A stretch of DNA of 64,000 bases from Octopus vulgaris (taxonomy: Eukaryota), in contig OX597832.1 in NCBI GenBank assembly GCA_951406725.2, forward strand, positions 10,540,001-10,604,000, given 5' to 3'. Below, piece after piece: positions 11,332-61,595 of this stretch (position 1 is its first letter; every line of letters begins with the position of its first letter). The notes beneath the pieces are model-generated. The model did not search any database. It had not been told where the DNA came from and saw only the letters and a list, made by a program, of their open reading frames with translations. The position numbers were made by a program, and so were the translations under genes.

Positions 11332-11563
11332 AAGGCGGTGAGCTGGCAGAAACGAAAGCACGCCGGGCGAAATGCGTAGCCGTATTTCGTCTGTCGTTAC
11401 GCTGTGAGTTCAAATTCCGCCGAGGTCGACTTTGCCTCATCCTTTCGGGGTCGATAAATTAAGTACCAGTTACGCACTGGGGTCGATGTAATCGACTTAA
11501 TACCTATGTCTGTCCTTGTTTGTCCCCTTCTGTGTTTAGCCCCTTGTGGGTAGTAAAGAAATA
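11332..11563 (+). mobile_element. SINE family B (Meta-domain-like) with 18-bp TSD
   Basis: ggcggtgagctggcagaa...gagttcaaattcc...catcctttcggggtcgataaattaagtaccag; TSD ggtggtgtatgtgtgtat at 11314-11331 and 11564-11581. Confidence 0.9.
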
Positions 11564-13296: not shown

Positions 13297-13639
13297 TACG
13301 TATGTGTGTGTGTGTGCGTGTATGCAAGTAAGTATGTATATGATTTCTCTATAAGTTTAGATTTTTTTCAAATATATAATGCTGTAACCTGAAGGCAAAA
13401 CTGAAAGCTTGGCGGTGGTGTATGTGTGCATTTATTTAATTCATTTGAAGTAGTGTATTCTAATTTTAATTTCTTCTTTTAATTTTATTTCATTATTACA
13501 TAATTCGCTATATTAACTTTCTCTACTAAAAGTTTTCTCTCATACTATTCCTCTATTGCTTTCCCCTTTACCCCGTCCACCACTTTTCTATTTCTTCCTT
13601 CCTACTTTCTCCCGCTTCTTCCTATCATTGTTATTATCA

Positions 13640-14060
13640 AGGTGGGGAGCTGGCAAGATCTATAGCGTGCCGGGTGCAATACTTAGCGCTAAATCGCCCG
13701 TGGCTACGATCTGATTTCAATTTCCACCGAAGCCGATTTTGCCTTTCGTGCTTTCGGTGTCGATAAATTAATTACCAGTTACACACCAGTGCCAATGTAA
13801 TCGATTATCTCCCTTCCCTCAAATTTCATGCCTTGTACCCATGCCAGAAAGGATTATTATAAAGTTTGCAAGGTGGCAGAGTCGTTAGCACACCGGGAAT
13901 TTCGTCCGTCTCTGCGTTCTGAGTTCAAATTCCAGCGCGATTAATTTGCCTGCCATCCTTTCAAAATCAATGAAATAAATACCAGTTACACACAGGGGTC
14001 GATGTAACAGAGAATCCACCTGACCCAAATTTTCAGGTCTTGTTCTTTTAATAGAAATGA
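13640..14060 (+). mobile_element. Two old, tandem family-B-related SINEs
   Basis: ggtggggagctggcaag..gcctttcgtgctttcggtgtcgataaattaattaccag and gagttcaaattcc..catcctttc..ataccagttac. Confidence 0.7.
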
Positions 14061-16736: not shown

Positions 16737-17009
16737 GTATATCTATATTATAATGAGGAAAGTTTCTTATTAATTAGGTATGCAACAATTACTAAAAGTA
16801 CTAAATTAAAGCAATTCCTAAAGGGGTGACCGTCTGGAAAATTTTTTTATAAATTCCTGTTCTAAGAAATTTGTTTCTTATTTGCCCACAAGGAGCCAAC
16901 ATAGAGGGGAGGGCACAGCCTGTCAAAAATGCAGCAATGTACAAGGAGTGTTACGAGTGCATTTGTGTTATGAACACATTTTCCGTACTACCCATTCCCG
17001 CTAGTTTTT

Positions 17010-27973: not shown

Positions 27974-30625
27974 GTTATCATATGCGAATTTTTGAACGAG
28001 CCAGTATCAATCGCAAGTTTGCTTCCGACCCACAAGCATTATACAGAGATAAGGAACGAAAACATAATCATTAAGAAAGCTCCCTCCCAAGTAGATCTAC
28101 AATCATTCTGGTCACAAATTTGGAACGAAAATAGGGATTTCAACCTGTTATGGTTGAATACAGTTGAGAGAGAATACTGTACCAAAACTAACAGTAAAAC
28201 ATACACAATTAATGCAATTACTCTCGCTATAGTAGTAGGAAAAATGTAGACTGGGAAAGCACCTGGAAGGGATCTAACAGTTGGAGATTGTTACAAGAAG
28301 CTAACATTTTATAGAAACCAATTGGAATGTATGTTCAAAAGGACTATGAAAGGTCAGACTGATGTAATCAAATTGGCTTGCTACAGCAAGGACAAGCCTT
28401 ATTGCCAAGAATGAAATCAGCGAGATGGCAGGAAACTACAGGCCCATTGCTTGCTGAAACATTATGTGCAAAGTGTACACAGGATGCCTCAAACAATTCC
28501 TCCAGGACTGTTTTGGGTCGAACAACATTGCGATTGATGAAAAGGAAGGTGGAAGAAAGAGAGTGTGGGGATGTGTCGAACAACATTTAATAAACAATGC
28601 TGTACTGTCTGAAGTAGGAAAACAACGTATAAACTGTGTGACAGAATGGTTTGACTATAAGAAGGCATACGACCCTATCCCTTATTCGCTGCTGTTGAAG
28701 AGTCAACATCTGGCAAAAGTACCTACTACATTAATTGCTGCTATAGAGAGACTCACAAAGACATCGAAGACAACTCATACCTCTACAACTCAGAACAAAA
28801 TAATTGTTTCTGATAGTATAGGTATTTGAAAAGTAATATTCTATACTTCTTTTCATTTTGGAACTGAATCCATTATCATTCCTACCGCAGAAACCAAATT
28901 GTTACACGCTAGGTTAATAAAGTGCTAGTAACATCAATGTCACTCATGATTTCTTTGTAGACGACCTGAAGATTTATGCTAAAGGTGTTAACTATGCCAA
29001 AAAACAACTGGAATTAATAAAATTTTCTGCTGACATAGACAAGGAATTTGGTTAAAAGAAATGTTCATATTTGGTTATAGATTGAGGATAGTCAGTCCCA
29101 CAAACCCAAAACCTGTACGTCAACGGTCTCTCTATCCTACACCGACCGACACAAAGAATGCTAAAAGTATCTAGGCATAGATGAAAATGTATTATATGAG
29201 GGCGCCGCTATGAATAAATATAGAATGACTCGAGAATATTACACCAGACATGGGAAAATATGGCAGTCGGAACTCTTCTCATACAACAAAACAATATTCC
29301 ACAGTACATTTGCAGTACCAGTGCTTTCCTCACATTTGGGATACTTGATTGGTTTGTAGAGGAAATCCACTCCATAGATATCAAAACCCGCAAAATCCTG
29401 ACAATAACTGGGACGTTCCACAGATACAATGATGTTGACAGGATCTACCTAGGAAGAAACGAAGGTGGTAAAGGCCTGAGATCGGTACAGACGGCTTCCG
29501 GATTCCGTATGGTATCACTCAGGCAATAGCTGATAAACAACAGCAGCAAAATTAAATATATATAAATACAGAGCTGAAAATGGAAGTGAACAACAGAGTA
29601 CAAGTTGACAGTGAGCTCCTCAAGAAGCACTCTCTTCTTGATGATCTCCCATACAGCCCCAAAAGAGATGGGCTCTTTTAATCAGAGAAGACTTGGATGA
29701 AAAGCACTCAGCATAGAAAACAAAAAGAAGAATACACATGGGTATGTTGCCCAGAAGCTTGAAGACAGTGAGACTGACACGAAGTGCAGCCACTCTTAGA
29801 CACAAGATCACTACATCGCATCACACATTGAAGGCTATACGTTTGCAATCCAGAAACAGAAGATTGCCGCAAAGTGCTTGATGGACTTGAGAGATCATGA
29901 TGCTCTTGTAATCCCATGGTGCAACCAAATGAGTACGCTATATCACGTTTCTGTGGAAGACATTAAACATGTGATTAGCATTTGTTCTAAAATGTAGTCA
30001 CTTTACTGCCTCCCTATGCAGCACTATGTTGTTGCTAAAACTATTTACAATGCCATCCACAAAAATAACTGTCCTGAAATAAACTTATACAATCCCTGTT
30101 GTTGAAAACATTCATAAATATCACCTCAAAGAATGGTGGTGGAATACTCCCATCAAATCTTCTGTGAAATATAGACATAACAGGCCGGATATTGTTGCTT
30201 GGGACAGAGGGAGAAAGGCATGTAACAACATAGCAGTTAGCTGCCCTTCAATAATAAATAGTTCTTTGAAAATCAACGAGAAACAGTATACCTATGGACA
30301 ACTGCTTCGAAACCTCTAGTTTCTATATCCAGAATATGAATTCATATTCATATCAATAATAATTGGAGCACTCGGTTTTGTTAGTAAATGCTTACAGGAG
30401 AATCTAGATGAACTGGGATTTTCAGAAAGAGAAATCGACCGGCTATTTCATACATAAATCGACCGGCTAATTCGCAATCTGCGAGTGGAACAATTAAAAA
30501 TATGCAAGACTTTTCTCAAGTTCAAAATCTGAACAAAGTCTGCGTTATCTATATCCCAAAAATGGAGCCTTGTATCATTGTTGGAAACCGGCTAAAAGAG
30601 TTATAATTTTTAAAAAACAGAAGAG
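27974..30625 (+). mobile_element. 5'-truncated, degraded R4/Dong-type non-LTR retrotransposon (RT plus restriction-like endonuclease)
   Basis: Motifs in order across frameshifts: FWSQIW, WKAPGRD, NYRPIAC, GC.EQ.LINNAVL, WFDYKKAYD, FFVDDLKIYA, YLGIDE, IDIKTRKILT..FH..DVDRIYL..EGGKGL, EGYTFAIQ, degenerate CCHC (EDIKHVISIC), HNRPDIVAWDR, IIIGALG. Confidence 0.9.
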
Positions 30626-32433: not shown

Positions 32434-33354
32434 TGAATATATATATGTGTGTGTATGTGTGTGTGTGTGTGTTTGTGTGTGTGAGCTGCTGGTTATTTAT
32501 GTATAATCATACAGACAGAAACGCAGATATATATATACAAATTATTCGAAAAGACAGAGAATAGTATTTAAACACCACAAATGAGGGAACTCGCAAGTCA
32601 TAAGTTCTACACTCCGATGAGCAACAAACAGAAAATCAAAAAAACTACGCGAAAGCAGGCAAGATACAGAAGTTATTAGAAGCTCAATCATTACCTCCTT
32701 ATGAAGCATACTTACATCAAAGTAGATCAGCTCAAAACATTTTAATTTCAAATACGAGAGAGAAAATAAGCTGAAATTACATAAACAATGAAAAGTTATA
32801 CAGAGGATATACTAAACCACCTCCTGGAATACATATCAAAACAATACATAAATAAAGAAGAAAATTTGATCTATGAAAATGCAGTACAAACAACTAAGAA
32901 GTAAATAATACGAGGGAAATTATAACTATTTCACACAAACACAATGCAAAACATGAATGTAAACCAATTGCTTGACGACAATCAGGGACCAACCAACAAA
33001 GAAAAACTAGATAATTTTTTTTTAAGAAAACGGTGAGAACAATAACAACGCTCAAATGAACAATACAAAACATATTGATATTAAATAAGCACGAATAAAA
33101 ATTACAGCTTACACCTAAATGTTGCAGAAGGTTAAAATTCGGGAAAGAACGCAATTATATTTAGACAAATAACTCGCATTAGTTATATATAAACTCCTTC
33201 TTCTTTCGTGATGAACCAGTTGAATTGAATTCACACACTCACAGACATACATACTAATACGTATGTATGTGCGGTTGCACATATATGTGTGTCTGCGCGT
33301 GTGTTTTTTGGGTGTATCTGTGTGTTTATGCGTAAGTGCATGTGCTGTGTCGAT

Positions 33355-33460
33355 TGGCCTTGTGGTTAGGGTGTTGCGCTCGTGATCGCGAGATCGTGGT
33401 TTCAAGTCTGGACCGGATGATTTTCGTAACGCCAAACTGCAACCATGTTACTAACGATAT
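33355..33460 (+). repeat. tRNA-like SINE head duplicated at 34255-34357
   Basis: gtgttgcgctcg.gat.gcgagatcgt.gtttc..gtctggaccggatgattttcgtaa.gccaaactgcaaccatgttac occurs twice ~900 bp apart. Confidence 0.75.
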
Positions 33461-33654
33461 TGAAACGCATGCAAATGTATGTCAACATTGGAAGGTGTTA
33501 CTGAGCGGTAAGAAAATTGCTACCAAAGCCCGCATTCTTGGTTAAGTCTCACTGCTTGACACATTTGGCAAGTGTTTTCTATCATAGCCTGGGGCAGTCC
33601 AAAACGATGTGGTAGACGGAAACTAAAACAAGACCGGCATATATATATATATAT

Positions 33655-34384: not shown

Positions 34385-35052
34385 TTGCAACTCGCGTTCG
34401 TGAGATCGCAGTTTCAATTCCCAGACCGGGAGTTGTGAGTGGTTATTTAGCGGAAACACCTAAAGCTCCACGAGGTTCCGGTAGGGAATGGTGGCGAACC
34501 CTACTGTTCTCTTTCACCACAACATTATCTCACTGTGAGTGTTCACTGACCGAAAACACCTAAAGCTCCACGAGGTTCCGGCAGGGTGTGGTGGCGAACC
34601 CTGCTGTACTCTTTCACCACAACATTCTCTCTCTCTTTATTCTTGTTTCTCTTGTACATGTATTTCAAAGGGCCAGCCTTGCCACTAACTCTGTCATGCT
34701 GAAACTCCCTGAGAACTACTTCACAGATACTACACATATCTTTCTTTTTTACTACCCACAAGGGGCTAAACAGAGAAGAGGACAAACAAGGACAGACAAA
34801 GGGATTAAGTCGATTACATCGACCCTAGTGCGTAACTGGTACTTAATTTATCGACCCCGAAAGAATGAAAGGCAAAGTCGACCTCGGCGGAATTTGAACT
34901 CGGAACGTAGCGACAGACGAAATACGGCTACACATTTCGCCCGGCGTGCTAACGATTCTGCCAGCTCGCCGCCTTCACGTTAATTTCACGCGCAGGCTGT
35001 TCCTTGATCGGCTCAACTGGAACCCTCATCGTCGGAAGCGACGGAGTGCCAC
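34385..35052 (+). mobile_element. SINE family C with internal duplication, interrupted by a family B SINE (34740-34975, minus strand)
   Basis: aaacacctaaagctccacgaggttccgg...tctttcaccacaacatt occurs twice; nested reverse-complement family B copy. Confidence 0.8.
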
Positions 35053-37734: not shown

Positions 37735-37880
37735 GAAAATCTAATTGGTACTATTTTATCAACCTCAAAAGGATGAAACTAAGTCGACTTCGGCAGAATT
37801 TGAACTCAGAACGTAAAGACGGACGGAGTAACGCAAAGCATTTCGCCCGGCGAGCTAACAACTCTACCAATTCGCCACCT
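37735..37880 (-). mobile_element. SINE family B, degraded
   Basis: aagtcgacttcggcagaatttgaactcagaacgtaa...catttcgcccggcg. Confidence 0.75.
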
Positions 37881-38134
37881 GAATCAATTGATAAAATGTT
37901 GCAAATAGAAAAACGTTAGTTTTCACCGAGAGTCTACTTATTTTAAACCCATTATACTGCAATGTAGCATTTGGTTAAAACATTTCCACAGCTAACAATA
38001 ATTATTGCTGTCGAGAAGGGCTTGTATGCATCAATTACGGACTGTACTACAATTATCAGTTTCTCAATTTAGAATATCCACAATGTGAAACTTCCAAAAT
38101 ACTTCACGCAGGTAATTAATTCTGTTATTGTTAA

Positions 38135-39340
38135 TTGTTGCGTTGTCTGAGTCTTGGTGTTGCTGCCACACGACTGTCTTGTTGACGTGTACCTTCTTGG
38201 GGGAAGGGAGTAGCACAGTGTCTTAAAAAGAATATGGAACATGAACGGTTGAGTTCGTCCAAGTATGAATTACTCCATGCAATTGTTGAGATGGACAAGG
38301 AGAAAGGAAAAATGAATTTTGCGGCGGTAGCCAAAAGCAACAAGAAAGTAAACATGCAAGAGCTGGACAACTACAAGAATATGCTTCGTAGGGAGGGTCA
38401 CGATGTAAAGGTGTCCTCTTCCCAAGAAGTATTAAACGAGGCCAAGAGTAGTATGATAACCAACAGAACATATTCTGTGAAGGCCCAGAGAATAGAACTA
38501 ATGCTGACGGAGCAAATTGAAAAGGCACTAAAACCTATCTGGTAGGAAATTTCCAACCTGGCTAGAGGGAGAAATTCGGAATGGTGGAAGGGCCACAGCC
38601 AGGCGACACGCGGTGACCTCCTTGAAAACGGATGAAGTAATTTTTCTACCCATATACCTTGGAAGGCATGCTTGCAGGGTGAGGGTATAAGATAAACTCC
38701 CGGAGATAAATATGCCCTTGCTGGTGACAGCCATATTGCTGGGCATGGAGTAGAATAAGATAACGGTTTTCGACGTCACTAGCACCGCTCACAAGAATTG
38801 GCAGGGTCAGACCCCTGAATATGGTGATTCAAGCAGCCCCAGAAGACTTCGAAGAGATGGTGGAAACCATTACGGTGGACGATATAACGCTCAGGGTTAA
38901 AGTGGAGGGCAAGACCCCTTGTTTTTACAAATGTGTACAAAAAGGGCAACATTAGGGTAGAATGCTCTCAACCACCCGTAAAGCCTCAACAAGCGCCAGT
39001 GTCCGTAAAGGAACCCGCACCTCCGCCAACGGCGAAGGTCAGCAAAAGTACAGAGGGCGTTGGAGGAATCTTAACCAAGGACAGATGAGAAATTATTGGA
39101 AGGAAGATCAGAAACAGGAGGATAAAGATAAAAACCCTGAACGAGCACCCCATCCCACACCCATGCAATTCCTACCCGAACCCACTTCGTGCCACCCTTC
39201 CCTTGCAGACACCAAACCTTGCCCTGCTTCCTCTGACATTAACAAACTGAACACAAGCACAGGAGCCCCAAGTTCACCAGCCCCCAACCAGTGTAGAGAA
39301 AACAAAGAGCATAGTCCTTTAAAATGCACACAATAGAAAA
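38135..39340 (+). pseudogene. ORF1/gag-like zinc-knuckle relic, copy 1
   Basis: RTYS..IEKAL..LARGR..LKTDEVIFLPIYLGRHACRVRV..PEINMPLLVTAILLG..WQG..VKVEGKTPCFYKCVQKG/IRVEC; homologous at protein level to copies 2 and 3; boundaries approximate, no TSD found. Confidence 0.75.
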
Positions 39341-39553
39341 TTGTTAAAAAAAGGGGAACAGTGGGACGGTTTCTGTTCTTGAAGTAACCTATATCTTTTC
39401 ATTACCTGCAGTCTTCTTAACTGTAATTTTGTACCAAACAAATGCTGATACAGTTTTTCCTTCACTAGTCACTAAATTCTCATTATCTCCTAATATACGT
39501 GCAATGGACCTATTACGCGAATGCATCTCGGTACATAATCCAGTAAAGATCTC

Positions 39554-39969
39554 TTTACTCTCCTTTCTCTTTTACTTGTTTCAGTCATTTGACTGCGGCC
39601 ATACTGGAGCACCACCTTTAATCGAGCAGCTCGACCCCGGGACTTATTCTTTTGTAAGCCCAGTACTTATTCTATCGGTCTCTTTTGCCGAACCGCTAAG
39701 TAACGGGGACAAAAACACACCAGCATCGATTGTCAAGCAATGCTAGGGGGACAAACACAGACTCACAAACACACATACGCATATATATATATACATACAT
39801 ATATACGACGGGCTTCTTTCAGTTTCCGTCTACCAAATCCACTCACAAGGCTTTGGTCGGCCCGAGGCTATAGTACAAGACACTTGTCCAAGGTACCACG
39901 CAGTGGGACTGAACTCGGAACCATGCGGTTGGTAAACAAGCTACTTACCACACAGCCACTCCTGCGCCT
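39554..39969 (-). mobile_element. SINE family A, full length
   Basis: Close reverse-complement match to 3255-3630. Confidence 0.9.
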
Positions 39970-40111
39970 AATCTGAGTACATTATCGCTATATATTCGCT
40001 TCCAGGTGTCAGTATGTTCTTTTAAATTATTGTCAATTATATATTTAATTTTGGTATGAGTAATACCCTTTCTCATGCTAGTTATTTAACTTTTTTGTTT
40101 TAACTGTTTTC

Positions 40112-40629
40112 CGGGAGATCCTTGAGAAACGCACCTCTCTAAGAAAATGAAATGCAATTAAAATTGTTAGGGTTAGGGTTTAGTTTTAGGGTTAGGGTAA
40201 ATTTTAGGGTTAGGTGGTGTGCACTCGCTTTCTCTTCACCAATTTTATGATCTGATATACGACAGAAATAATCATAAAACAATAGAGTAAATATGCTTAA
40301 GACGTATGCAAATTTTGTAATTGTTATTTTTGTTTTCAGTTTACAGAAAAAATAAATTATACAACAGTTGCTATTTGGCCCCTCGTATCATTAATAATAC
40401 CTGATTGGTAAAAGCAAATTACCGTCCCTTGTATTGTCCGACATGTTTGTTTATATTAGCGAGTGTCAGTTTTCCGTTTGTTTTATTTTTTAGCATAAAA
40501 TATTTAAAAATAGATGAATCTTTCTAACTTTTTGCATACATCATTTATTTGTATATATTTTCTATTTACATAACTTGTTTTAAATTGCGTTTCATTTTCT
40601 TGGACAGGTGCGTTTCTAAAGGAGCGCCG
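40112..40629. mobile_element. MITE with ~47-bp TIRs and internal TTAGGG-like repeats
   Basis: cgggagatccttgagaaacgcacctctctaagaaaatgaaatgcaatt versus aattgcgtttcattttcttggacaggtgcgtttctaaaggagcgccg; ttagggttaggg at 40167-40215. Confidence 0.75.
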
Positions 40630-44564: not shown

Positions 44565-44780
44565 AGCCGTGATGTGGTATAATCGTTAGAAAGCCGGTTG
44601 AAAATCTTTAGCGGCATTTCGTCTTTCATTACGTTCTGAGTTCAAATTCCGCCGAGGTCGACTTTGCCTTTCTTTAGTTCGGGGTCTACAAAATAGTTAT
44701 CAGTTGAGAACTGGCGTCGATGTAATCGACTTTCCTACTTCCAGAAATTGCTGGTCTTGTGACGAAATGTGAAACTAATA
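44565..44780 (+). mobile_element. Old family-B-related SINE
   Basis: acgttctgagttcaaattccgccgaggtcgactttgccttt. Confidence 0.75.
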
Positions 44781-47700
44781 TTACTTCCAAAATCTTTTTA
44801 ATACTTCTCCATTCGCCTGGGAGACCTCCTTTTAACTGAGTAACTATAGTTACTCATATCATATCATTCATACGTCCTTTTTTAATTGTCTTAAGATCAG
44901 TCTTCAGTTATTTTTGTGTTTTGGTGGGTGGGGTATCAAATGTTTAGTTTCTTATAAAATTTTAATTTGTCACTGTTCAATTTAAGGTTGTACTATAGCC
45001 TAGCTTTTACCTTCTCAATTATTTCTAAAAGGTATTTCTTCCCTTTTCTATCAAAAACTTTATTTACTTATTTCTTCCCAAAAATAGCCATAAATTAAAA
45101 ATTCCATAATTAAGATAAATAAAAATAATGGACACTGATTTTAGTTCTGAGTAAATATTTTAATTTCAAAAACTATAGCTTAAATTATGAAATAAAATTA
45201 TTCATGAGTTCATAATTCGGATAAAGATAAAAATGTGTTGTTTAAGATAATATTTTGTTGAGAAAAATGCAAGATTAAACGAAGCCCATTTGTATTTTCC
45301 AAAGCTGTTTCTAACTCACGACGCAATTCTGAAAGCAAGACAGGAAGTTATAATAGTGCTTTTTTTGTTTTTGTTTGTTTTTTTAATATGCACAAGGAAA
45401 TACCCCTGGTTGTCGGTGATACTTATTTGAAAAACAAATACAAACATAATTGACAATGAAGACTAACTTTACTTCTGAAAAGCGTGCGACAGAATCTCAA
45501 CGTGGACGGATTCTCCAAAGTTGATAGTATAATTCAAAATTAGAAACTGCATGCCCAAGAAATAAAATTTTTGTTTTAGTGACGTAATGCAGATAAAACA
45601 TCATAATTTCACATTGCTAATCCATATATAAAATATATATAATACCATTACCTACAGATTCCATCTTTCAAATTTCTCGTACTCCTGTCAGTCTCAGGAG
45701 TATATTTTAAGAATATTTCTTTTGTTTCTTGTTTTCTTCGAGTTTCAACTATTTGTGTTCATTTTGTTAATCATTTTCTTTCTAACGTTATAATCTTTAT
45801 TGTACAACACGTAGTCTAAATTTTATAGTGTAGTACATCTCGCTATTCCCTTTCTTCTGTTCATATCCCGACTTTTCTTTTATCGTTGTTTTCTTTTTTC
45901 TTTAACTGTTTTGCTTAAGTTGCCTTCCTTCGTTCACGCACATTCTCATAATTTCATAATGTGTTCCTTTCATTTATTCTCTTTCAGGTTCTTTACTTGC
46001 GATTTCTCTTTTTCTGCCTATACTTTGTATTTTTTCTCCATTTTCATATTCATCTATTTCTTGTCAACAATTTCCCTCATTCATTCTTACCGTATTACTT
46101 ACTGATTCAAACCTTTGTAACATACATTGATCCTGTTTATATTTACAGGTTTCATCTGAATACATTATCCTTTTTCGTTCACACAGCTAACATTCACCAC
46201 CTTTCTTTTAATATCAAATTCAATATTTCTTAGCTTTATCATTTCCTGCTTCTACCTTTCTCATTGCAGCAATACAATGAACGCCTTCTTTATTCTCTAT
46301 ATTTTAAAGGATTTACGACTTCATGGCCTTCTTTGCCATTGTCTATGCATCTCAGGTTCTACATGTCGCTATACCCATGTTCGTATACAACCGTGTAAAT
46401 GTATCTGTTTATATATATGTTTGTCTCTGTATTTGTGCGTCCCTACTCGAACACGCGCACATAAATGTACATTAACGTGAATTAACCTGTTGATAGGAAT
46501 TTCCTTCCATTCACCGCTCACTGGATTCTGTGCTAGCTGCAATTAATTTATATTCTATATTTTTCCACAAAAGGCCGAAATTAGACAAAAAGAAATTCTT
46601 CTCTCATCACTGTTGATGTATATCCAATTAAAGCGCCATCCTCTCACTGCATCAGTCGTATAAGCATATCCTTATTTATCCTAGTTTGTGCACACTGAAA
46701 CTCGAAAATATTTCCTCAGACATCTTGTATGTCTTGCAATTGGCCTGTTTCAGACTTTGTTTTAACCTATTTTCTCAATTTCTCATGTCCACTGAATTAT
46801 ACTGCACATGAATACACGGACACACACACGGACATGAATACACGGACACACAGAGACACACTCACACAAAACATATTACATTTATTTCTCTCAACCTAAA
46901 TTATATATTGGTGTATTTTTACATGTATATATTACCTTCAGTTATTCAATGCTGGTCTTTGTTTTGTTTTTTCCTCCTTTTTCTAATTATCATGGGAATC
47001 GTTTGGTCGTGGGAAAATTTAATTTGCAGAATATGCCTCAGGTATTTTCCGAGTTCAACTTCTGCTTTCACCAGTCCAGGGCTAATAAATGAGTACCGTT
47101 AAATTTGAGGCGTCAACAATATTGACACCCTCATCTGACGCTGTACGTAAATAAATATGATGGTCTAGGACGTAAATCAAAAATAATCGATCTTATTATC
47201 GGACAAAAGTTTGCCGTATTTATTTCATTTTCTTAACGTTTACATTTCAAATCGTGACGATATCAACTTTGCCTTCCATCACTCCAGAATAAATAAAATA
47301 AAATAGCAGGCAACTACTGGGTCGAGGTAACAGATGAAATTATCTCCCTTCAATATTGCTGCCCTTGTACCAGGTTACTACTTCAAAACTCAGTACACTC
47401 TTTGAACGCAGGTGGTCATATCGAAATTTTCCTACATTCATTAGATTTAACCACCGCAAAAGCACGTGGCACTTCCCGTTCCCGTTTTCAATATTATTTA
47501 TTGCTTAACTATTTTATTCGTATGTGATATCTGCCTTCATTTTTCTCCAAGCTTCCACAGTGGTTCTGAAACATCTACCTCACTTTCGATAATTTGTTTT
47601 GTCATATATTTTTCTTTCATTCGTTTAAGTTTTGGAGTACAGGAAGATAATGGCATATTTTAACTTTAGAACGGTAGGTTAAATGAGAAGTGTGACAAAC

Positions 47701-48293
47701 TCACTATTTGCTCAGAGAAAAATACACTTTTGACACCACTTTAAAATGCATAATAAATTACATAAGATCTTGCGTCCCTTTACATATGAGCTTGGAGCGA
47801 TGACAATTTCTTTATCTTCGACGGCACTTGAATGTAAACATCTTTCAGTCAGTAATATGAGAAATAGTTCTGTGTTGCGAAATAATGCAGTTTTATAGTG
47901 CGAAAAAAAAAATTACATATCAATCTTTCAGAAAAAATCTGATGAGCAGATATAGGCTGGTAAAAAACGAAATGTTTCGCGCATGTACATATTGTTGAAG
48001 GACCGATAATATATTGTTTTGCTTTTAATAGGCAAATTTTGCCTGTATCCATTTTGGTTGAAGATCAGGTATATTTTCAAACATAATTGATTAAATATTC
48101 GGTACTTTTGAGTAACACAATGGGAAATTAAAGAACCGTATTTTTCCCCTGCCCCCAAATTTTCTTTACTCGGATATCAGGTAGGTAGTTTTCATTTACT
48201 TGTAGGAAGTCATTTGACTTGTAGTAAGATGAGAACCTATAGTGACAAAACGTATTAAAAAAATAAATAAATGAGTGATACTTAGTGTGAAAG

Positions 48294-48545
48294 TGGAGGC
48301 GCGTGGGTTAGTGGTTAGGGTGTCAGCATCATGATCGTAAGATTGTGGTTTCGATTCCTGGATCGGGCGACGCGTTGTGTTCTTGAGCAAAACACTTCAT
48401 TTCACGTTGATCCAGTCCACTGACCTGGCAAAAATGAGTAACGCAGCGATGAACTGGCGTCCCATCCAGCTGGGGAACACCTACGCCATAGAAACCGGGA
48501 AACCGGGCCCATGAGCCTGGCTAAGCTTTAAAAGGGCGCATTATT
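48294..48545 (+). mobile_element. SINE family D with TSD
   Basis: tRNA head tagtggttaggg..ggtttcgattcc; body ttgtgttcttgagcaaaacactt..gaactggcgtcccatccag; TSD ttagtgtgaa on both sides. Confidence 0.85.
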
Positions 48546-49639: not shown

Positions 49640-49852
49640 AAGGCGGTGATCTAACTGAAGCGTTATCCCGCCGGACAAAATGGTTAGCGGAATTTCGTGA
49701 CTTTTACGTTTTGAGTACAAATTCCGCCGACATCGACTTTGCCATTCATCATTTCAGGGCCGATACAATAAGCATCATTATAGAAGTGGGATCGATGCAA
49801 TCAACTTAATCTCTCTCCCTAAACTACTGGCCTTGAGCAGAATTTTGAAACC
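49640..49852 (+). mobile_element. Old family-B-related SINE
   Basis: aggcggtgatct..aaattccgccgacatcgactttgcc. Confidence 0.7.
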
Positions 49853-50254
49853 AATACATATATCTAGTGGTGGAAACTTTTCCCCATTCACAATGGGTAA
49901 TTGTATTCAGCAAAGACATATACTAACATTAACTAGAATCAATTAAACTTCAGATTCTACCGAGATCAACATTGCTTATTATTCATCTATGTTGGTTAAA
50001 ATAAAGTAGCCGTCTAGTACTGAAGTCAGAAAACCGAATGCAATTATTCTCAAAATTGGAGAGTTTATGTTAAGTCAGAATAATATCGGTATTTGTGCAG
50101 CGTGTGGACTGAAAATGTCTTTCGTAGAATTGAGAGTAAAGCCTATCTGCGTCATGTTGATGAAATACGAATCGATTTCAAACCCTTAATTTGTTTATTG
50201 TTACGTTCTTTGCCGTGCATAGTGCATCAATTGTTATCTTAGGTTTCATTTTTT

Positions 50255-50607
50255 TTTTACTTGTCATTTGACTGCAGCAATGCTTGATCACCGCCTAGAA
50301 GGGAATTTTAGTCGAGCAAATTGACACCAGAACCTTTTAAAGCCTAGTATAAATGCTGTTGATGTCATGTGCCCAGTCTCTAAATTATGTAAACGTAAAT
50401 GTAAATACACCATCACCGGTTGTCAAGCGGTAGTGGGGAGGGGAAAACACCCGCATCCACACCCACACAGATGTGTGTGTCTGTGCGTGTGTACGACGGG
50501 CTTCTTTCAGTTTCCATTTACTAAATCCACATACAAGGCTATAGTCGGCTCGAATGTGCCACGCAGTGAGACTGAAGCCGGAAACGTGGTTGGGAAGCAA
50601 GTTTCTT
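50255..50607 (-). mobile_element. SINE family A split by the ORF1-only element; its head continues at 52411-52446
   Basis: ...ggttgggaagcaagtttctt | insert | ggaagcaagtttcttgccacagagctacgactgcgc. Confidence 0.75.
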
Positions 50608-52410
50608 TATTTCTTTTAAAATGCCGTAAAGACATTACAAAAAGGGGGACACTACAACGTATGTGGCGACATGAAACAAAAATATGAAAATCAAATATGA
50701 TATAATGAATGACACAAGAACATGAAAAACAAATTTAATATAACATGAATGATATCTGAAAATGGATACTATGAAGCGTGTGCTACTCACCCCACACTGA
50801 GTAACATCGCTCGCCGCCTCTGGGTCGTAAGCTCTTTTTCTCCTTAAGTTCAATCATTTTTCCCCTTTCTCCAGCATTTAGTGACATCATTCCCTCCGCC
50901 ATGCATTTGTAACCTTCCTCACTGGTGGCGGGGGTCTTCTAAATTTTGTGGTGTCTGTTCATTCTTTTTCTATTTTTTCTTGTGGGCAAATGGTGTAGGT
51001 GGGTTTGGTGTCTGTATGGGGAGGGTGGGTCTGAGTGGTCATGGGTGGGATGGAGTTGGACCGAGGTACCACATCATACTCATTATTTTTTCTTCTTTTT
51101 CTCTTTCTCCTGCTCTCTTTAACTTTCCATTCTTCCCCATTCTTCCTCCTTTCCCCCGTCTGTCATTTCTTCCTCTCTTTTCTCTTCCGTCTCCACAACT
51201 GTTTCCTCAGCCATGGGCAGTATGCTCTAATGTAGCCCTTTAGGCCACATTTAAAACAACGTGGTACTCTGTCCTCTTCCCACACCCTCTACACGATTGC
51301 CCTCAACGTCACCATATCTGCCAACTTCTCCAGTTGACCCTCCTGTCTGAATAAGGAGTTCAAGAGTCCTTCGTTTCCAACCTCCTACTTCCGTTTCTCT
51401 GCCTTGGAGGACAGCCACCTTCACCTCGCTTCCAACAAGAACAGCTGCCGCCAACCAAGCCACATCTGTATCCGGTGGAATTGCTTCTACCCTCACCTTG
51501 GAAGTCTTTCTTCCAAGGTATGTGAGCAGAAGCACTACTTCCTCTGTTTTTTATCCAAGGGCTGGCTCACAAATTTGCGAGCCACCTCAGGGGCGTCATA
51601 TAAAAGCCATACCGTTGCATACTTGACACCCCTAGAAATAAACTTTATAGTTGGCAGATGCTCTGCCAACTCTTTCTCTATTTCAATTTTAGGAAAGACT
51701 GTGATGGTTTCGAGTGACTTTGAATATGTCCTCCACACCACCGGCCTTTCCTCTAAGTCTTCTAACCACTGATCGGGTGGGACAAACTCCCACTCCAACA
51801 CAGAGTTCGTTTTCTCTGACATGTTTTGGAAAAAGAAAAGTTCACACAAAAACAGCGAAAGATTAAAACACAAAAAAGGAAAGAAGGAAGAAGGAAAGAA
51901 AAACAGTCCAAAACACGGCGACTTCAATCTTCCGGCCAATTGATATGGCAACAGGAGCACAACAACCGGAACAAAGCTTCGCAAATTTCAACAATAAATT
52001 GATACAAAAATTGGTAAAATATTTCACAATATTTGGAGGTGGAATACGCCTCCAAAATATTCCACACAATCTTCCGTCCACTATTACTCCAGCCCGACCA
52101 AATAGTAGAAGGGACACGGCCACAGGAACACAAAAACAACGTTCACAATTTTTGGAGGCGAGATATGCCCCCAAAACAAGTTACTTCTCACCGCTAAGTG
52201 AGATACTTATGCCAAACTGCAGGCAGACAAATGTCCGGAATCCAGTGACTAGATTGGAAAGAAAAATTAAACACCAAACAACAAACCCCTAGTGAACTCC
52301 AAAAAACAAAAGTCTTGCAGCTGATCTTCACTAGTTCAATAATTCACGAAGCTAGTGTCCAGCGTCGTGACTCCTCTCAGTGTAAAGAAAACACTGACAC
52401 ACGCATGCGC
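50608..52410 (-). mobile_element. ORF1-only zinc-knuckle retroposon, copy 2 (1803 bp) with 15-bp TSD
   Basis: TSD ggaagcaagtttctt at 50593-50607 and 52411-52425; ORF from ATG 51822: WRTYS..IEKEL..FISRGVKYATV..TYLGRKTSKVRVEAIPPDTDVAWLAAAVLVG..RCFKCGLKGYIRAYCP; no RT. Confidence 0.85.
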
Positions 52411-52479
52411 GGAAGCAAGTTTCTTGCCACAGAGCTACGACTGCGCTTATTATTGGTAGTGATTGTTTTTCTTTTTTCA

Positions 52480-53761: not shown

Positions 53762-54254
53762 AAAGGCGGCGAGTTGGCAGAAACGGTAGTGCGCCGGGCG
53801 AAATGCTTAGCGGTATTTCGTCTGCCGTTACGTTCTGAGTTCAAATTCCGCCGAGGTCGACTTTGCCTTTCATCCTTTCGGGGTCGATAAATTAGGTACC
53901 AGTTTCGCATTGGGGTCGATGTAATCGACTTAATCCGTTTGTCTGTCCTTGTTTGTCCCCTCTGTGTTTAGCCCCTTGTGGGTAGTAAAGAAACAAGTAT
54001 TTCGTCTGTCTTCACGTTCTGAAAGGCGGCGAGCTGGCAGAAACATAGCACGCCGGACGAAATGCTTAGCGGTATTTCGTCTGCCGTTACGTTCTGAGTT
54101 GAAGTTCCGCCGAGGTCGACTTTGCCTTTCATCCTTTCGGGGTCGACAAATTAAGTACCAGTTACGCACTGGGGTCGATGTAATCAACTTGATTCGTTTG
54201 TCTGTCCTTGTTTGTCCCCTCTGTGTTTAGCCCCTTGTGAGTAGTAAATAAATA
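53762..54254 (+). mobile_element. Head-to-tail dimer of family B SINEs inside an older tRNA-headed SINE
   Basis: Two near-identical copies (53762-53996 and 54022-54254) joined by gtatttcgtctgtcttcacgttctga. Confidence 0.9.
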
Positions 54255-54984
54255 GGTTGGAGATGGTTGCACAACCACGTAGATGTACAAAAATGAATGA
54301 AATTGTATCTTTTGAAATGCTCTCAGAAGCTATCTAATTTTCTTACCTGTATTTTACCATTCTCTTCATTTGCAATTCAATATGTTGAAGCTGCATGTTA
54401 TTACCAATGCGACATGAATTTATAACCATTGTCCTTTTGCTAGTACAGATTTTTATTTTTTTAAATTACTGTGATATTCCTGTCGTAGTCATTTCTAATG
54501 TCATTTATTTTTGTACTGTATCTCATAACATTTTAATTTTTTGTGAGTGGATAAAATGTAATGTTCGCACTTTTAAATATTAAGTATCTTCCTCAAGCAG
54601 CTTCGCTCCATTTGTGCAGACCTCTACCGAATTTTATATCCTAGTTCAATTCATGAACAATGTTCAGTGATTTCTCCAATTGACTATTATCACTGGTAAG
54701 TGAAGAGACGTGCTGTGCTTACTTCAATATTTGAAATCGGACAGATTCTGCAACAAGGCTCCAAAAACCAGAAGGTAGAAATGAAACAGGAAGACTGAGT
54801 GAGTCCACTAACCAAGTATTCCATGGTAGGAATTGAACTACCAGTCGCAATCCGACGATTGGTGGGTATTGCAGTGTTTTTTTTTCTTTTCGCGTGATCA
54901 GAGCTACGTAGAAAAGAATAACATAAGTCGAGTTCATGCAAGATTTATTTACCTATGAATACTTGTCTGATTTTTATCATCTAC

Positions 54985-56433
54985 GTGAGTTGGTTGAGCT
55001 TTGGTTTCGCTCCCAGGTGAGTTGTTGTTTTTATTGTTCTGAAATACGGAATTGTTGAATTACTGAATTGTTGGATATTGTGTTTGATATTCTGTTTCTG
55101 AATTTGCTGAAAATTTTATTTGGTTTCCCCATTTATGGGTGAAGCGGGTAATAACGCAATTATGCCGGTTCAAACAGGCAGTTATGCGGCAGTGACGGGC
55201 AAAAGCCTGACAGCTGAGCTACTGAATATACAAGAACTTGAAGTAAAGGATATAGATTATAAGATACAGAACGTTAAATATAGCTACAAGGAAAGTGGAA
55301 TTCGCAACCATCGAAGCGATAGAATGCCTAAAAGACGTAAAAGACAATTACATTCTACAACAGAGCACGGAAGTTTGGCACGGTGGAGGTTCGCTTCGTT
55401 AATGAAAACGAATAAAAAAAGTACTCCACCGTATCGTTGAAGACAGTACTGTGGGCACTCTTACCTACTTATTGTGGCAGACATTCGGCCAGAGTGAGAA
55501 TAGGGAGAGTGCCACCAGAAATAGACGAGGATTGGTTGGTGGCAGCCATCCTCTGTAGAGGAAAAGGTCGAGATTTTGATAGCATCCAAAACAGCGGAGG
55601 TCAACTGGTGGGGGTTTGGCCTCGAAGTGATGGTACTCATAATCCTACCAGACCTCCACAAGATGACGGAGGAGATAATATTGCTCGACGAGACTAGACT
55701 GAGAGTCATGGTAGAGGGGTGATCACCAATATGCTTCCAATGTGGAGTAAGGGGGCATGTAAAGGCAAGGTGTCCCCAGAAACATGAACAACTGGTGGTG
55801 GAGGAAGAGAGTTCGGAAAATGTAAATGAAATAGCGGAGAAGGAAGTAGAGTTGTCCGAGGAAGACAAGAGAGGAAATAGTGAGTCCCCACCAAAAAAGA
55901 AATGGAAAGCAGAAAAAAAGGGAAAAGAACAGCTGAAGCAACGATAGAACAAATACCAGGGCCGGAGCCGTCAACAAGTAAGGAGGAGGAAGGACGGGAA
56001 GAACTGTTAGATCTGCTAGAAACAACAGCAAAAATGACAGAGAATGTTGAAAGAAGGCCGAAGCCGTCAACAAGTAAGGTTGACGAAGAACGGAAGTCAT
56101 TGGAAGAACCGATAACAAGTAAAGGCCACGTAAAGGAAAATACAACAGAAGATATGTGAGATACGAGAAAAGTGTAGAAATTGAAAAACGGATAGCAAGA
56201 AGGAAGGGAGTTATCAGTGAAACTTGCAGATAAGGAGGTGAATCGAAACAAGAAAGCAGTATTATTAGATGAGGAAAAAGCAGCCAGACTGAGAAAGACA
56301 TTCGGAAGTAGGATAGAGAATACAGCATTATGGGTTCGATTCGACGAAGTACCACCTGTGATAACTTTTGAGGAAATGGTAAGTCTTATGATATAGAATA
56401 AAAATAAAGGAAAAAAGATATCAAACAGAACGG

Positions 56434-56488
<55 letters not shown>

Positions 56489-56697
56489 GAACAGTAATAA
56501 AGATACAAACTGAACAGTAAAATGCAACTTTCTACTTTTGTGGGGGTGGGGTAGAAAGTCATTTTCGTCATCATTATAATTTTATTTTTACATCTTATAA
56601 ATCATTCGCTAATATTTTATTTGTACCCCACGTTTGTGTTATCTGTCTCCGTAGTGTCCCCTCTATATTTAAGGATTTATGCCTAATAAAGAAAAGA
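54985..56697 (+). mobile_element. ORF1-only zinc-knuckle retroposon, copy 3 (1713 bp) with 16-bp TSD
   Basis: TSD gatttttatcatctac at 54969-54984 and 56698-56713; ORF relic SYAAVTG..RKFGTVEVRF..LKTVLWALLPTYCGRHSARVRIGRVPPEIDEDWLVAAIL..VMVEG*SPICFQCGVRGHVKARCP plus E/K-rich tail; aataaa near the 3' end; no RT. Confidence 0.88.
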
Positions 56698-56729
56698 GAT
56701 TTTTATCATCTACTTTGAGTTATGATGCA

Positions 56730-57460: not shown

Positions 57461-58334
57461 TCACATATTCTCTGGCCAGAACCTCAAACACTTTTCGAAG
57501 TGATGTATCCCGAATTCTTTTGATAACGGCTTGATAAATTGTTTCTGCGGCTTCAAATTTCTATTCTTTTTATTTTTATTATTTAAGACGGGAATTCGTT
57601 CGGTCATATGAGTGTTGGATAGAATACAATACATTACGAAATATGACGGTGAGTTCAAGTCCCACAAAATTCTAAGTTTTTTTTTTTTTTTTTTTGGTTT
57701 TCTAATAATGTTACAAATACGATGTGGTGGATTGTCGGATCTGTTGAATAGACAGAAAGATGTCTTGCAATACTGGTGCCAGCTCTCCGCATTTTAACTT
57801 AAAACCAGCGACGACTGTATTCTAGAAAATGAAGACTTGCATACATGGACAACAACCACATTTCTGTAAAATTAAAAGTAAAGCTTTCTCGTGTCCGTAT
57901 CTTGTATCTTGGAGAAACTTTTTTAAAGTGATGCCTAACAAATCTTTTATATCAGATGACAAATGCCAGTTATGTTTTTAAATTTATCTTGTAACAGCTT
58001 GATTTAGATTTTTAAGATTTGTTTGTTTATCATTTGGTTATTTATTTTACGAAATTCGTAATAGTAATGAGTTTATCTTTAAAGTTCGGAATACCTCTTT
58101 ACTACTACTACAATTACTACTGAATAAATTGCATTACTTATTTTGTTGCTCTTAGAAATTTTCTTTCCCTGAATATATCCTCTGTCCTTCATCACCGGCA
58201 ATTTTCCATTATCGTTTCCCAGTTACACATTCAACTACCGTCAATTTTTAACGCTTATTGCATGAGCAAGATATTTCTAGCTAAAAGCGGAAAGCAATAT
58301 TTTTAAAACCATCACAATCATCAATTTCGAGGGA

Positions 58335-58510
58335 GGGTGGAAATGTCGATTACATAGACCTCAATGCTCAACTAGGACTTATTTTATCGACCCTGAAAGG
58401 ATGAAAGGTATGGTAGATCTCAACGGAATTTGAACTCAAATCATAAAGACAGACGAAATGCCGCTACGCATATTACCCGGCATGCAAACCATTCTACTAG
58501 CTCGCTTCCT
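58335..58510 (-). mobile_element. Old family-B-related SINE
   Basis: ttttatcgaccctgaaaggatgaaagg...cggaatttgaactc. Confidence 0.75.
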
Positions 58511-60319
58511 TACAACTATCACAATCATGAACATTAATTTAGATTATAAATTTTTTATTACTATGACTATTAGTATTTGTAGTTGTTGCTGATTGTTAGA
58601 GATACGAACAAAGATTTGCATGAACAAAGTAGTGCATGCACTTTGTCTTGAGTTCAAACCCCACCGAGGGTACATTTACTTACAATCCAACGAACTCAAT
58701 GCAACAACATTTCTTTAGATTCAATATCTTTAACTTTTGTGATAAATCACTATTAATGGAGAAACAATTACACAGGAAATACTTAGGCGGCAATGCGGCA
58801 CATGAATGAATTTATATTAAGTTTCTGCGTGGCATAATATTGTTTTACATGTTATATTTAATAAGGCTGTTGTGAAGAACATTTGTTCCATATTTAATTA
58901 TATCCATCACTAAATAGAGATAAATAGTGAACACAGAAAATCGCAAGTAGATTTCATATGCTAAATTCAATATCTTTTAGAGTTTGAGCTTAACACACTT
59001 CATTACACACTTGTGTAATATGTGATCATGATATGGTAAAACTTAAAACAGTAGCCCATTTTATCTACTTCTGAAATTATTGATATTAATGTTGAGAAAG
59101 GTTTTAATATATCTTACCAACCCTTGTAAAACAGAGATATCGCTTGCAAAATTTCAATAAGTCATTTAGTTGTAAATGTAATCAAGAGCAAATATAAACA
59201 CCCGCCTCCCTTTCTGGCCTGGCAGAATATTTCGAGACTAAAATGTGGCCAGATGTACCAATACATATCTGGTGCCTGTTTTACCTGAATAGAATGGAGT
59301 CAAGTGACAAGAAATTAGAGCGCGATGCTTAAGGGCGCAACGCAACAACTTGGACTTTAACAGAAGCCACAACCACACGGCTGATTATAAATCGAAATTT
59401 ATGACTAATTTATCTTTGTTCATAGTAACGAATCCCGGCTATATACACGCATTCACATACTTGCACACTCACACATTAAGCTTTAACTATAGAATATGCT
59501 TTCGGCATGACAACAGTCTCAATTTAATATAAGAAACAAGTTTAAAAGAATGTGTTGAATGTTAAGAGAAATAATATTAAAAGCAATATATCAAAAACTT
59601 TATGTATCTTAATAAAAGATAGGCAAATACACATTCACTTTCTATCTCTTGCTCTCTCTCTCTCTCTCACCATTCTCTCTGATTTCTAAGATGCAAATAG
59701 CCTATATGAAATATTTTTTTTAATCTAAAAGATCAGTTATTTTTATTCTATATAAACATTTCAGACGAAAGAATAGGAATTAACATCTTTAACGATTCCA
59801 GAAAAGTGACCACTGCTGATCTATCAACCAAACAAAATGCTTAAACGAGACCGCTTCATAGCTGTCTTTTTGAAGGTAACATACAATTTCCTTTCTTTGG
59901 AACAGTTAATGGGTGAGTCCAAGTTGCTTTATGGGCTTATGGCACTGACAATTTCATATATGAAAGACGAAATCAGGAAAGGAGATTTCAAAGATGCTGA
60001 AGCGATTATTCGCCATTACTTCAACCATTCTTCATTTAGCACCACCTTATGGAATTAAAGACGCATGTTTAATATTTTATGAACCTTTAGGAGGTTAAAT
60101 GACCACGTATAACTCATTTATTTTCTTGTAGATTTAAACCGCTGTAGTAGTTTCTTGTGTTGATTCATGAGACATAAAAACGCTAAGTTTAAAAAGCCGG
60201 GACACACTGTTTTCATTCCTAATTGCTGATATTTTTATGCTGATATTAGTTTTCAAGTCCCTGCCTGGGATTGAACTTAGAATCTGAAGTTTAGTAGCGC
60301 TAAAATACACTTTATAATT

Positions 60320-61286: not shown

Positions 61287-61510
61287 TATTTCTTTATTAC
61301 CCACAAGGGGCTAAACATAGAGGGGACAAACAAGGACAGACATAGGTATTATGTCGATTACATCGACCCCAGTACGTAACTGGTACTTAATTTATCGACC
61401 CCGAAAGGATAAAAAGCAAAGTCGGCGTCGGCGGAATTTGAACTCACAACGTAACGGCAGACGAAGTACCGCAAAGCATTTCTCCCGGGGTGCTAACGCT
61501 TCTGCTAGCT
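61287..61510 (-). mobile_element. SINE family B with 12-bp TSD
   Basis: TSD ttggttaatacc on both sides (~61275 and ~61518). Confidence 0.88.
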
Positions 61511-61595
61511 CGCTGCCTTGGTTAATACCATCCGTATGAGGTGTTTTCCGAGCAAATTCAAGAAAAGATTTTGTGTGGAGCATCAAACAATTTTA

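What the first reader, a model, noticed from the sequence alone, without database searches (positions are those of the whole stretch)
56644..56697. ORF1-only elements and the young Meta-like SINE share a structurally conserved 3' tail with covarying stem
Seen, in element orientation. SINE B: tgtcccctctgtgttta-gccc[cttgt]gggt-aataaagaaata. Copy 3: gtgtcccctctatatt-taagg[atttatg]ccta-ataaagaaaaga. Copy 2: gtgtccccctttttgt-aatgtc[tttac]ggcatt-ttaaaagaaata. Orphan tail at 16870-16910 (-): cccctctatgtt-ggctc[cttgt]gggc-aaataagaaac. The layout TGTCCCC-(Y-rich)-hairpin-TAAAGAAA is kept while the stem sequence changes but still pairs. Known: 'stringent' LINE RTs recognise a 3' stem-loop shared with partner SINEs. 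Inference: one LINE lineage mobilises both a non-coding SINE and a protein-coding half-LINE, a three-part system.
Basis: partly seen in the sequence, partly recalled or inferred. Interest (0 to 1): 0.75.

Follow-up and report, generated by a model that had tools for sequence, protein, structure and literature searches.

The report
Shared hairpin tail of octopus retroposons
In this octopus-like DNA, a short non-coding jumping element and two defective protein-coding ones end in the same small RNA hairpin, whose stem letters change but keep pairing, which suggests they borrow copying enzymes that recognise this shape, though the enzyme-coding partner was not found.

Summary
All four quoted tails are in the window. 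Target-site duplications (TSDs) place the tails at the true 3' ends of two complete ORF1-only elements (1.7 and 1.8 kb) and of SINE B. I found a fifth tail at 39312-39360(-). In five tail types a 4-bp stem with a 5-nt loop lies 13-14 nt after a C-run. 19 of 20 stem cells pair, all 4 pairs show double-sided change, and 0 of 500 shuffles reach the covariation score. A model built without the fifth tail finds it with structure (E 0.011) but not without (E 1.7). TSDs start 16-18 nt after the loop, with no poly(A).

No autonomous LINE with this tail was found. The ORF1-only copies are distant families (at most about 45-50% protein identity), so a clade of LINEs fits better than one lineage. SINE B lacks the published Meta-domain motifs. 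Single tails fold no better than shuffles. Best reading: stringent, shape-based tail recognition by L1/Tx1-type LINEs, used by half-LINEs and a tRNA SINE. This is a new variant of known systems.

The parts
54985..56697 (+). Copy 3: complete ORF1-only retroposon, 1713 nt; about 150-nt 5' leader, decayed ORF1, (TA)n, about 200-nt 3' UTR, hairpin tail; no ORF2 trace seen
   Evidence: TSD; translations; tblastn to P0001 31%
54969..54984 (+). 5' TSD of copy 3 (16 bp)
56698..56713 (+). 3' TSD of copy 3 (16 bp), starting 17 nt after the loop
55135..56396 (+). Decayed ORF1 of copy 3 (stops and frameshifts); CCHC knuckle about 55729-55779, then an E/K-rich region
   Evidence: zf-CCHC E 4e-4
56655..56697 (+). 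Tail of copy 3: C-run, pyrimidine tract, stem 56672-75/56681-84, loop 56676-80, A-rich end
50608..52410 (-). Copy 2: complete ORF1-only retroposon, 1803 nt, inserted in the tRNA head of another SINE; ORF1 starts at 51822
   Evidence: 15-bp TSD 52411-52425 and 50593-50607; 75% identity to Octopus sinensis LOC115225585
50608..50651 (-). Tail of copy 2: 6-bp stem, loop 50630-50626; TSD starts 18 nt after the loop
20618..20849 (+). SINE B, 232 nt: A and B boxes, central domain, about 60-nt tail with the hairpin; 19-bp TSD
11332..11563 (+). SINE B copy, 18-bp TSD
61287..61519 (-). SINE B copy, 12-bp TSD
53763..54254 (+). Two SINE B copies in tandem (53763-53995, 54023-54254) with a short internal SINE piece between and one degenerate TSD
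34737..34975 (-). SINE B copy; 3' end approximate, no TSD found
16872..16912 (-). Orphan tail, closest to the SINE B tail (84% over 38 nt). The 110 nt upstream are not SINE B and end at an inverted-repeat element; no TSD, parent unknown
39312..39360 (-). Fifth tail (new here): 5-bp A/U-rich stem, 5-nt loop, same spacing; ends an unidentified fragment interrupted by a SINE (39552-39970)
   Evidence: best non-self hit of the copy 2 tail; held-out CM hit E 0.011
38100..39300 (+). Copy 1: decayed ORF1 relative, boundaries approximate; no tail in its own orientation and no TSD found
   Evidence: tblastx to copies 2 and 3, E 4e-14 and 2e-12
13639..13862 (+). Example of the older SINE subfamily (also 13868, 44566, 49640 on +; 58512 on -): same head and central domain, a different but similarly laid-out tail

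Best explanation
The tail is the 3' cis-signal of a group of related two-ORF LINEs of L1/Tx1 type in an octopus. Their ORF2 protein binds a short hairpin by its shape and its conserved flanks (C-run, pyrimidine tract, TT in a 5-nt loop). It nicks the target and starts reverse transcription 16-18 nt downstream of the loop, without a poly(A) tail, leaving 12-19-bp TSDs. Copies 2 and 3 are half-LINEs from different, long-separated members of the group; they kept the 5' end, ORF1 and this tail and were moved in trans. SINE B is a Pol III (tRNA-headed) SINE that carries the tail of another member, probably the family of the orphan tail at 16872-16912. Shown: boundaries, ORF1-only anatomy, shared geometry, covariation, no poly(A). 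Inferred: that ORF2p recognises the hairpin, that the parent is L1/Tx1, that the half-LINEs are multicopy families, and that any one enzyme serves both kinds.
For: TSD-defined ends. Tail similarity ranks above background for copy 3 and the orphan. 19 of 20 cells pair, and the outer pair is a different pair type in each of the five tails. RNAalifold covariation term -2.04. P(>=11 of 12 cells paired in the three divergent tails) is 1.6e-4 on window background, and 5e-3 for copies 2 and 3 alone. The held-out tail scores E 0.011 with structure and 1.7 without. Loop-to-TSD distance is 16,16,16,16,17,18 nt. Longest A run is 3-4 in the four non-SINE tails; AATAAA occurs in 1 of those 4 and 3 of 6 SINE B. 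ORF1 look-alikes are RRM plus CCHC proteins. L1-Tx1 covers 56 Mb in O. vulgaris against 0.5 Mb for the I group (PMC13282606 supplement).
Against: No autonomous LINE with the tail was found. Only five tail types from 64 kb, and I trimmed the alignment to 32 nt by hand; with the longer MAFFT alignment 24 of 28 cells pair. Single tails are not unusually stable (z -1.35 to +1.03; the 50-nt MFE of copy 3 is not the hairpin). Copy 2 to SINE B sequence similarity is within background in one direction. The orphan tail is only E 0.24 in the held-out model, close to a background hit at 46291 (E 0.28). TSD starts differ between SINE B and the half-LINEs. Copy 1 has no tail. The clade cannot be fixed without RT; linking this ORF1 type and TSD length to Tx1 is recalled knowledge.
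Confidence: 0.6

Rival explanations
1. One reading: one autonomous LINE family mobilises SINE B and both half-LINEs at the same time.
For: Same hairpin geometry, loop-to-TSD distance 16-18 nt and TSD length range. SINE B and copy 3 share 41 identities over about 65 nt.
Against: ORF1s are distant (copy 2 78%, copy 3 31% to P0001). Stem and loop letters differ. All 4 SINE B insertions with a recognisable TSD start with GGT, while copies 2 and 3 start AAG and GAT.
Confidence: 0.12
2. Copies 2 and 3 are not families but one-off defective insertions of ordinary LINEs (spliced RNA, template jump or later deletion of ORF2). The tail is a real LINE tail and SINE B took it, but there is no propagating half-LINE.
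For: Each element is seen once; there is no DNA-level second copy in 64 kb. Both ORF1s are broken.
Against: Two unrelated elements both lack all of ORF2, are of similar length (1713, 1803 nt) and keep intact TSDs. The closest database protein is an ORF1-only product, and no longer fused form was found (weak evidence).
Confidence: 0.15
3. The hairpin is inherited and conserved but serves 3'-end formation or RNA stability (processing or termination signal), while the RT is relaxed.
For: AATAAA lies next to the stem in copy 3 and in 3 of 6 SINE B copies. A fixed 3' end could come from processing. No functional data exist.
Against: AATAAA is missing in the other tails and no poly(A) was inserted. 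The same signal sits on a Pol III-type and on protein-coding elements, whose transcripts end by different routes (general knowledge).
Confidence: 0.08
4. Chance: pyrimidine-rich then A-rich 3' ends with a short stem picked after the fact.
For: Small sample; 4-bp stems are common (2% of positions); folding z-scores are ordinary.
Against: Ends were fixed by TSDs first. Ranks in 127,902 positions, slid-register controls and the held-out fifth tail all go against chance.
Confidence: 0.05

Closest known systems
HAL1 (half-L1), HeT-A and Ag-Sponge: ORF1-present bipartite non-autonomous LINEs (PMC5786205, passages; PMC5753468, passages)
   Same: ORF1 only, LINE-like 5' and 3' parts, TSD-flanked; HAL1 arose several times independently, as the distant ORF1s here suggest.
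   Different: Mollusc host; RRM+CCHC ORF1; ends in a covarying hairpin with no poly(A) (poly(A) ends of mammalian HAL1 are recalled); the tail is shared with a SINE.
Stringent L1-clade pair in grasses: LINE1-1_ZM with ZmSINE2/3 and sorghum SINE2 (PMC3747384, passages)
   Same: About 45-50-nt tail; hairpin with variable, compensating stem and conserved loop and flank.
   Different: Animal host; weaker hairpin (-3 to -7 against -11 to -18 kcal/mol); no poly(A); half-LINEs also carry it; autonomous partner not yet identified.
Stringent L2/CR1 SINE-LINE pairs, e.g. bivalve BivaV-SINE2 with CR1-14_CGi (PMC4824008, two parts of the text)
   Same: Shared 3' stem-loop with compensatory changes taken as the sign of a partner LINE.
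   Different: No terminal microsatellite; long exact TSDs; linked elements carry a two-ORF-type ORF1.
SINEU with Tx1-Mar in crocodilians (PMC4494074, passages)
   Same: An animal SINE assigned to Tx1 machinery; target preference (SINE B TSDs start GGT).
   Different: There the link was drawn from shared target choice; here it is a shared structured tail.
MetaSINE superfamily (PMC4824008)
   Same: tRNA head, conserved central domain, exchangeable tail.
   Different: The Meta-domain motifs tested are absent. The central domain recalls that of Sauria SINEs (from memory, not tested).

Membership tests
HAL1-type ORF1-only non-autonomous LINE | Encodes ORF1 but no ORF2 between its ends | tested here: met
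   ORF1 homology; 1713 and 1803 nt between TSDs leave no room for ORF2
HAL1-type ORF1-only non-autonomous LINE | Inserted by retrotransposition (TSDs) | tested here: met
   16- and 15-bp exact TSDs
HAL1-type ORF1-only non-autonomous LINE | Propagates as a multicopy family | not testable with these tools
   No octopus genome searchable; one copy of each in the window
HAL1-type ORF1-only non-autonomous LINE | Derived from an L1-clade autonomous element | tested here: inconclusive
   RRM+CCHC look-alikes; no fused ORF1-ORF2 relative found
MetaSINE | tRNA-derived head with A and B boxes | tested here: met
   A-box pattern in 6 of 6 and B-box in 5 of 6 copies at 1 mismatch, patterns recalled; ARAGORN and Rfam found no tRNA
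MetaSINE | 66-bp Meta domain directly after the head | tested here: not met
   Two 12-mers from the printed BivaMeta/BivaMD alignments give no same-strand hit in SINE B at up to 2 mismatches; the full Fig. 2 consensus was not visible
Stringent SINE-LINE partnership | Conserved 3' stem-loop with compensatory changes | tested here: met
   five tail types only
Stringent SINE-LINE partnership | Tail shared with an autonomous LINE | tested here: inconclusive
   The only RT-bearing element detected in the window (27990-30530) has no tail hit; parents of the 16872 and 39312 tails unidentified
Stringent SINE-LINE partnership | Mobilisation depends on the tail | not testable with these tools
   Needs a retrotransposition assay
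Tx1 clade | RT-domain phylogeny | not testable with these tools
   No RT linked to the tail
Tx1 clade | Target-sequence preference (common in the clade, PMC4494074) | tested here: inconclusive
   TSD starts GGT in 4 of 4 SINE B insertions with a TSD, GAT and AAG in the half-LINEs

The most novel reading that the evidence does not exclude
Octopus holds an animal L1/Tx1-type LINE clade that kept stringent, poly(A)-free, shape-based 3' recognition. It repeatedly spawned half-LINE families and drives a major tRNA SINE whose older and younger subfamilies carry successive versions of the same hairpin. This would be an animal example, found by structure, of the proposed ancestral stringent state of the L1 clade, serving both coding and non-coding parasites.
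Probability: 0.4. Interest if true: 0.7.

Novelty: new variant of a known kind. Interest (0 to 1): 0.5.

Why it matters
A 2013 survey found only 3 SINEs with L1-clade tails among more than 800 L1-clade LINEs and proposed that stringent recognition was ancestral (PMC3747384, passages); the pairs described there are from grasses and a green alga. An animal case with a covarying, poly(A)-free tail would make that proposal testable, by comparing ORF2p of this clade with poly(A)-dependent human L1. It would also name a partner for an octopus SINE. SINEs make up 11.7% of O. vulgaris, and 1279 of 1317 SINE families are unclassified (PMC13282606). Sequence-only searches miss such links, as the copy 2 and fifth tails show. 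The building blocks (half-LINEs, shared stem-loop tails) are each known, which caps the surprise.

Tried and rejected
Search for the autonomous partner. The 60-codon frame upstream of the fifth tail gave one unrelated hit with seven repeated matches, no Atlas hit and no credible Pfam hit. The 101-aa frame upstream of the orphan tail gave nothing and lies largely within an inverted-repeat element. An ORF1 alignment found no longer fused protein among 7999 candidates. P0001 found nothing in bacterial genomes or the PDB. Pfam on the 150 longest of 278 stop-free frames (67 aa or more) found no RT or endonuclease, but it also missed the RT piece at 28458 that a read-through found, so it is insensitive; the other 128 frames were not scanned as a set. 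Single-sequence AlphaFold of P0001 was uninformative (pLDDT 38), so no fold search was run. The RT-bearing element at 27990-30530 was rejected as donor: its 3' end gives no CM hit. The CM hit at 46291-46322 (E 0.15-0.28) was rejected: no C-run, T-rich context. Twin priming was rejected for the 39312 tail, which lies tail-to-tail with copy 1. A longer basal helix (pyrimidine tract with the A-rich end) appears in some folds but changes with the stretch folded and is expected from composition, so I do not count it. Rfam: 0 hits. Supplements: tail motifs were absent from the readable files of PMC9115989, but its sequence files were empty, too large or not searched. SINEBase supplements, file 1 of PMC4824008 and Bao and Jurka 2010 were not readable. 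Repbase, Dfam and the Zenodo O. vulgaris library were not available, and any of these could already hold these elements. Cluster members of P0001 stayed unchecked. Viral and metagenome contig collections were not searched.

Full report
Setting. The window is AT-rich, microsatellite-laden animal DNA full of SINEs. The N-terminal 95 codons of copy 2 match one protein, Octopus sinensis LOC115225585 (P0001, 281 aa, 75% identity), so the source is inferred to be an octopus. No eukaryotic genome collection was searchable, so DNA evidence comes from these 64 kb only.

The observation. To avoid circularity I fixed element ends by TSDs, not by the motif. Copy 3 spans 54985-56697 (+) with a 16-bp TSD; copy 2 spans 52410-50608 (-) with a 15-bp TSD. 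Three of six SINE B copies have exact TSDs of 18, 19 and 12 bp, two form a tandem with one degenerate TSD, and one has none. In each case the tail ends at the TSD.

Is the likeness more than chance? I scored the last 50 nt of SINE B against all 127,902 positions. After the six SINE B copies come the orphan (48), the copy 3 end (48), an antisense overlap of a SINE B end (39) and the copy 2 end (37); everything else is 34 or less. With copy 3 as query, the six SINE B ends and copy 2 take seven of the eight best non-self peaks. With copy 2 as query the picture is weaker: copy 3 ranks second, but SINE B ends (36.5-37) fall below background peaks of 38-40.

Structure. A sequence-only alignment of five tail types (one SINE B, copies 3 and 2, the orphan, the fifth tail; 32 nt chosen by me) has one gap. 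It puts a 5-nt loop with invariant TT 13-14 nt after a C-run. The four pairs around it are paired in 19 of 20 cells. All four show double-sided change, and the outer pair is G-U, G-C, A-U, U-A and C-G in the five tails. 0 of 500 shuffles reach the score, and slid registers pair at 33-40%. RNAalifold returns the same helix. On a longer alignment of seven rows, where MAFFT set a gap inside the fifth tail's stem, 24 of 28 cells pair. Against window background, 11 of 12 cells in the three divergent tails has P 1.6e-4, and copies 2 and 3 alone give 5e-3. A descriptor fitted to these tails hits 9 sites against a mean of 0.63 in 100 shuffles, but it was designed after the fact. The cleanest test left two tails out. 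A model from SINE B and copies 2 and 3 finds the fifth tail at 24 bits, E 0.011, with structure, and at E 1.7 without; the orphan goes from E 0.99 to 0.24, still near a background hit (E-values rough, scoring modes differ). The all-tail model finds the ten tails and no further convincing site. Against: no single tail folds better than shuffles (z -1.35 to +1.03), the sample is five, and R-scape could not be run.

How the RNA ends. The TSD begins 16 nt after the loop in four SINE B insertions, 17 in copy 3 and 18 in copy 2. There is no poly(A): the longest A run in the four non-SINE tails is 3-4, and AATAAA is present in 1 of them and in 3 of 6 SINE B. A fixed start just behind a hairpin fits a reverse transcriptase positioned by the hairpin (inference).

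The ORF1-only elements. P0001 looks like RRM plus CCHC proteins, including ZCCHC3-type RNA-binding domains (Atlas scores 0.89-0.93), and copy 3 has a zinc knuckle. In both complete copies the decayed ORF1 runs into an A/G-rich, charged-residue stretch, then a T-rich UTR of about 140-200 nt and the tail, with no room for ORF2. They are not one family: copy 2 is 78% and copy 3 31% identical to P0001 over the matched stretches, and copies 1-3 share 42-48% in their best segments with almost no DNA match. Copy 1 has neither a tail nor a TSD. That two-RRM, single-knuckle ORF1s and 12-19-bp TSDs point to L1/Tx1 is recalled knowledge. It agrees with L1-Tx1 being abundant (56 Mb, 80 families) and the I group rare (0.5 Mb) in O. 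vulgaris. Without RT the clade is not proven.

The SINE. SINE B is 232-233 nt (one copy 239 as bounded), 87-96% identical between copies, with A and B boxes. Its body does not carry the Meta motifs printed for BivaMeta-SINE1 and BivaMD-SINE1, so 'Meta-like' should be dropped. From memory its centre resembles the Sauria SINE domain; this was not tested. Five older copies share head and centre but have another tail with the same layout: C-run, 12-13 nt, a CTTGT-like loop and, in 3 of 5, GAAA 10 nt later. 12 of 20 core cells pair (P about 0.02), but the CM does not detect them, so this is a lead. All four SINE B insertions with a TSD start it with GGT (background 0.9%); copies 3 and 2 start GAT and AAG. 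This hints at a site-preferring enzyme or microhomology for SINE B and argues against one identical enzyme for all.

The missing partner. The orphan tail is closest to SINE B (84% over 38 nt) but its upstream 110 nt are different, so it is a good candidate for the 3' stub of the donor LINE; nothing identifies it. The fifth tail ends a fragment with a 60-codon open frame, also unidentified. The one RT-bearing element detected, 27990-30530 (RVT_1 E 8e-6; R4/Dong-like by my recall), ends differently. The three-part system is therefore two parts observed and one inferred.

Comparison. ORF1-only LINE derivatives are known from L1, Jockey and CR1 (PMC5786205, passages). Covarying tail hairpins shared by SINE and LINE are known for L2 and CR1 (PMC4824008, two text parts and supplement part 1) and, rarely, for L1 in grasses (PMC3747384, passages). 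Bivalve SINE partners reported are CR1, CR1-Zenon, L2 and Nimb (PMC11481361, passages; PMC4758252, passages). I also read most of the text and the supplement of PMC13282606, and passages of PMC4494074, PMC5753468, PMC4176376, PMC8967140, PMC9115989, PMC10294476, PMC10351740, PMC11203168 and PMC3531059. Ten searches showed no description of octopus half-LINEs or of this tail. The library lacks subscription journals and Repbase Reports, so prior annotation is not excluded.

Verdict. It works like a stringent LINE tail. The elements meet the anatomical tests for HAL1-type half-LINEs, family status is untested, and the SINE is not shown to be a MetaSINE. New variant of a known kind, interest 0.5.

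Noticed in passing
window 11314, 20592, 61529(-), 53747/54255: All four SINE B insertions with a recognisable TSD begin it with GGT (0.9% background), suggesting target preference or microhomology.
   Followed up: partly
window 53763-54254 (+): Two SINE B copies in tandem with a short internal SINE piece between them, inside one degenerate TSD; looks like template jumping in one insertion.
   Followed up: partly
window 50480-50607 and 52411-52460 (-): Copy 2 is inserted in the tRNA-like head of another SINE family ('SINE A', CORE-type by recall); one case only, but Tx1 elements often target multicopy RNAs or repeats.
   Followed up: no
window 13639-13862, 13868-14070, 44566-44790, 49640-49860 (+), 58300-58512 (-), 37742-37880 (-): Older subfamily of the same SINE with a different tail of similar layout: tail replacement on a constant head and body.
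   Followed up: partly
window 27990-30530 (+): Decayed single-ORF LINE with RT (RVT_1 E 8e-6) and a C-terminal region that looks like a restriction-like endonuclease; R4/Dong-like by recall.
   Followed up: partly
window 10250-10620 (-): 124-codon frame that resembles a Penelope-like GIY-YIG region by recall; no Pfam hit.
   Followed up: no
window 39312-40120 (-): Unidentified fragment ending in the fifth tail, split by a SINE A (39552-39970) with a degenerate TSD of about 16 bp and bounded by an inverted-repeat element.
   Followed up: partly
window 17025-17670, 17850-18950, 40119-40623: Three inverted-repeat (MITE-like) elements; the last holds a short TTAGGG-like run near 40170-40200.
   Followed up: no
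window 34390-34634 and 4076-4242, 33351-33493, 48293-48488: A third SINE-like family with an internal inverted repeat (34434-34634); one SINE B copy lies beside it.
   Followed up: no
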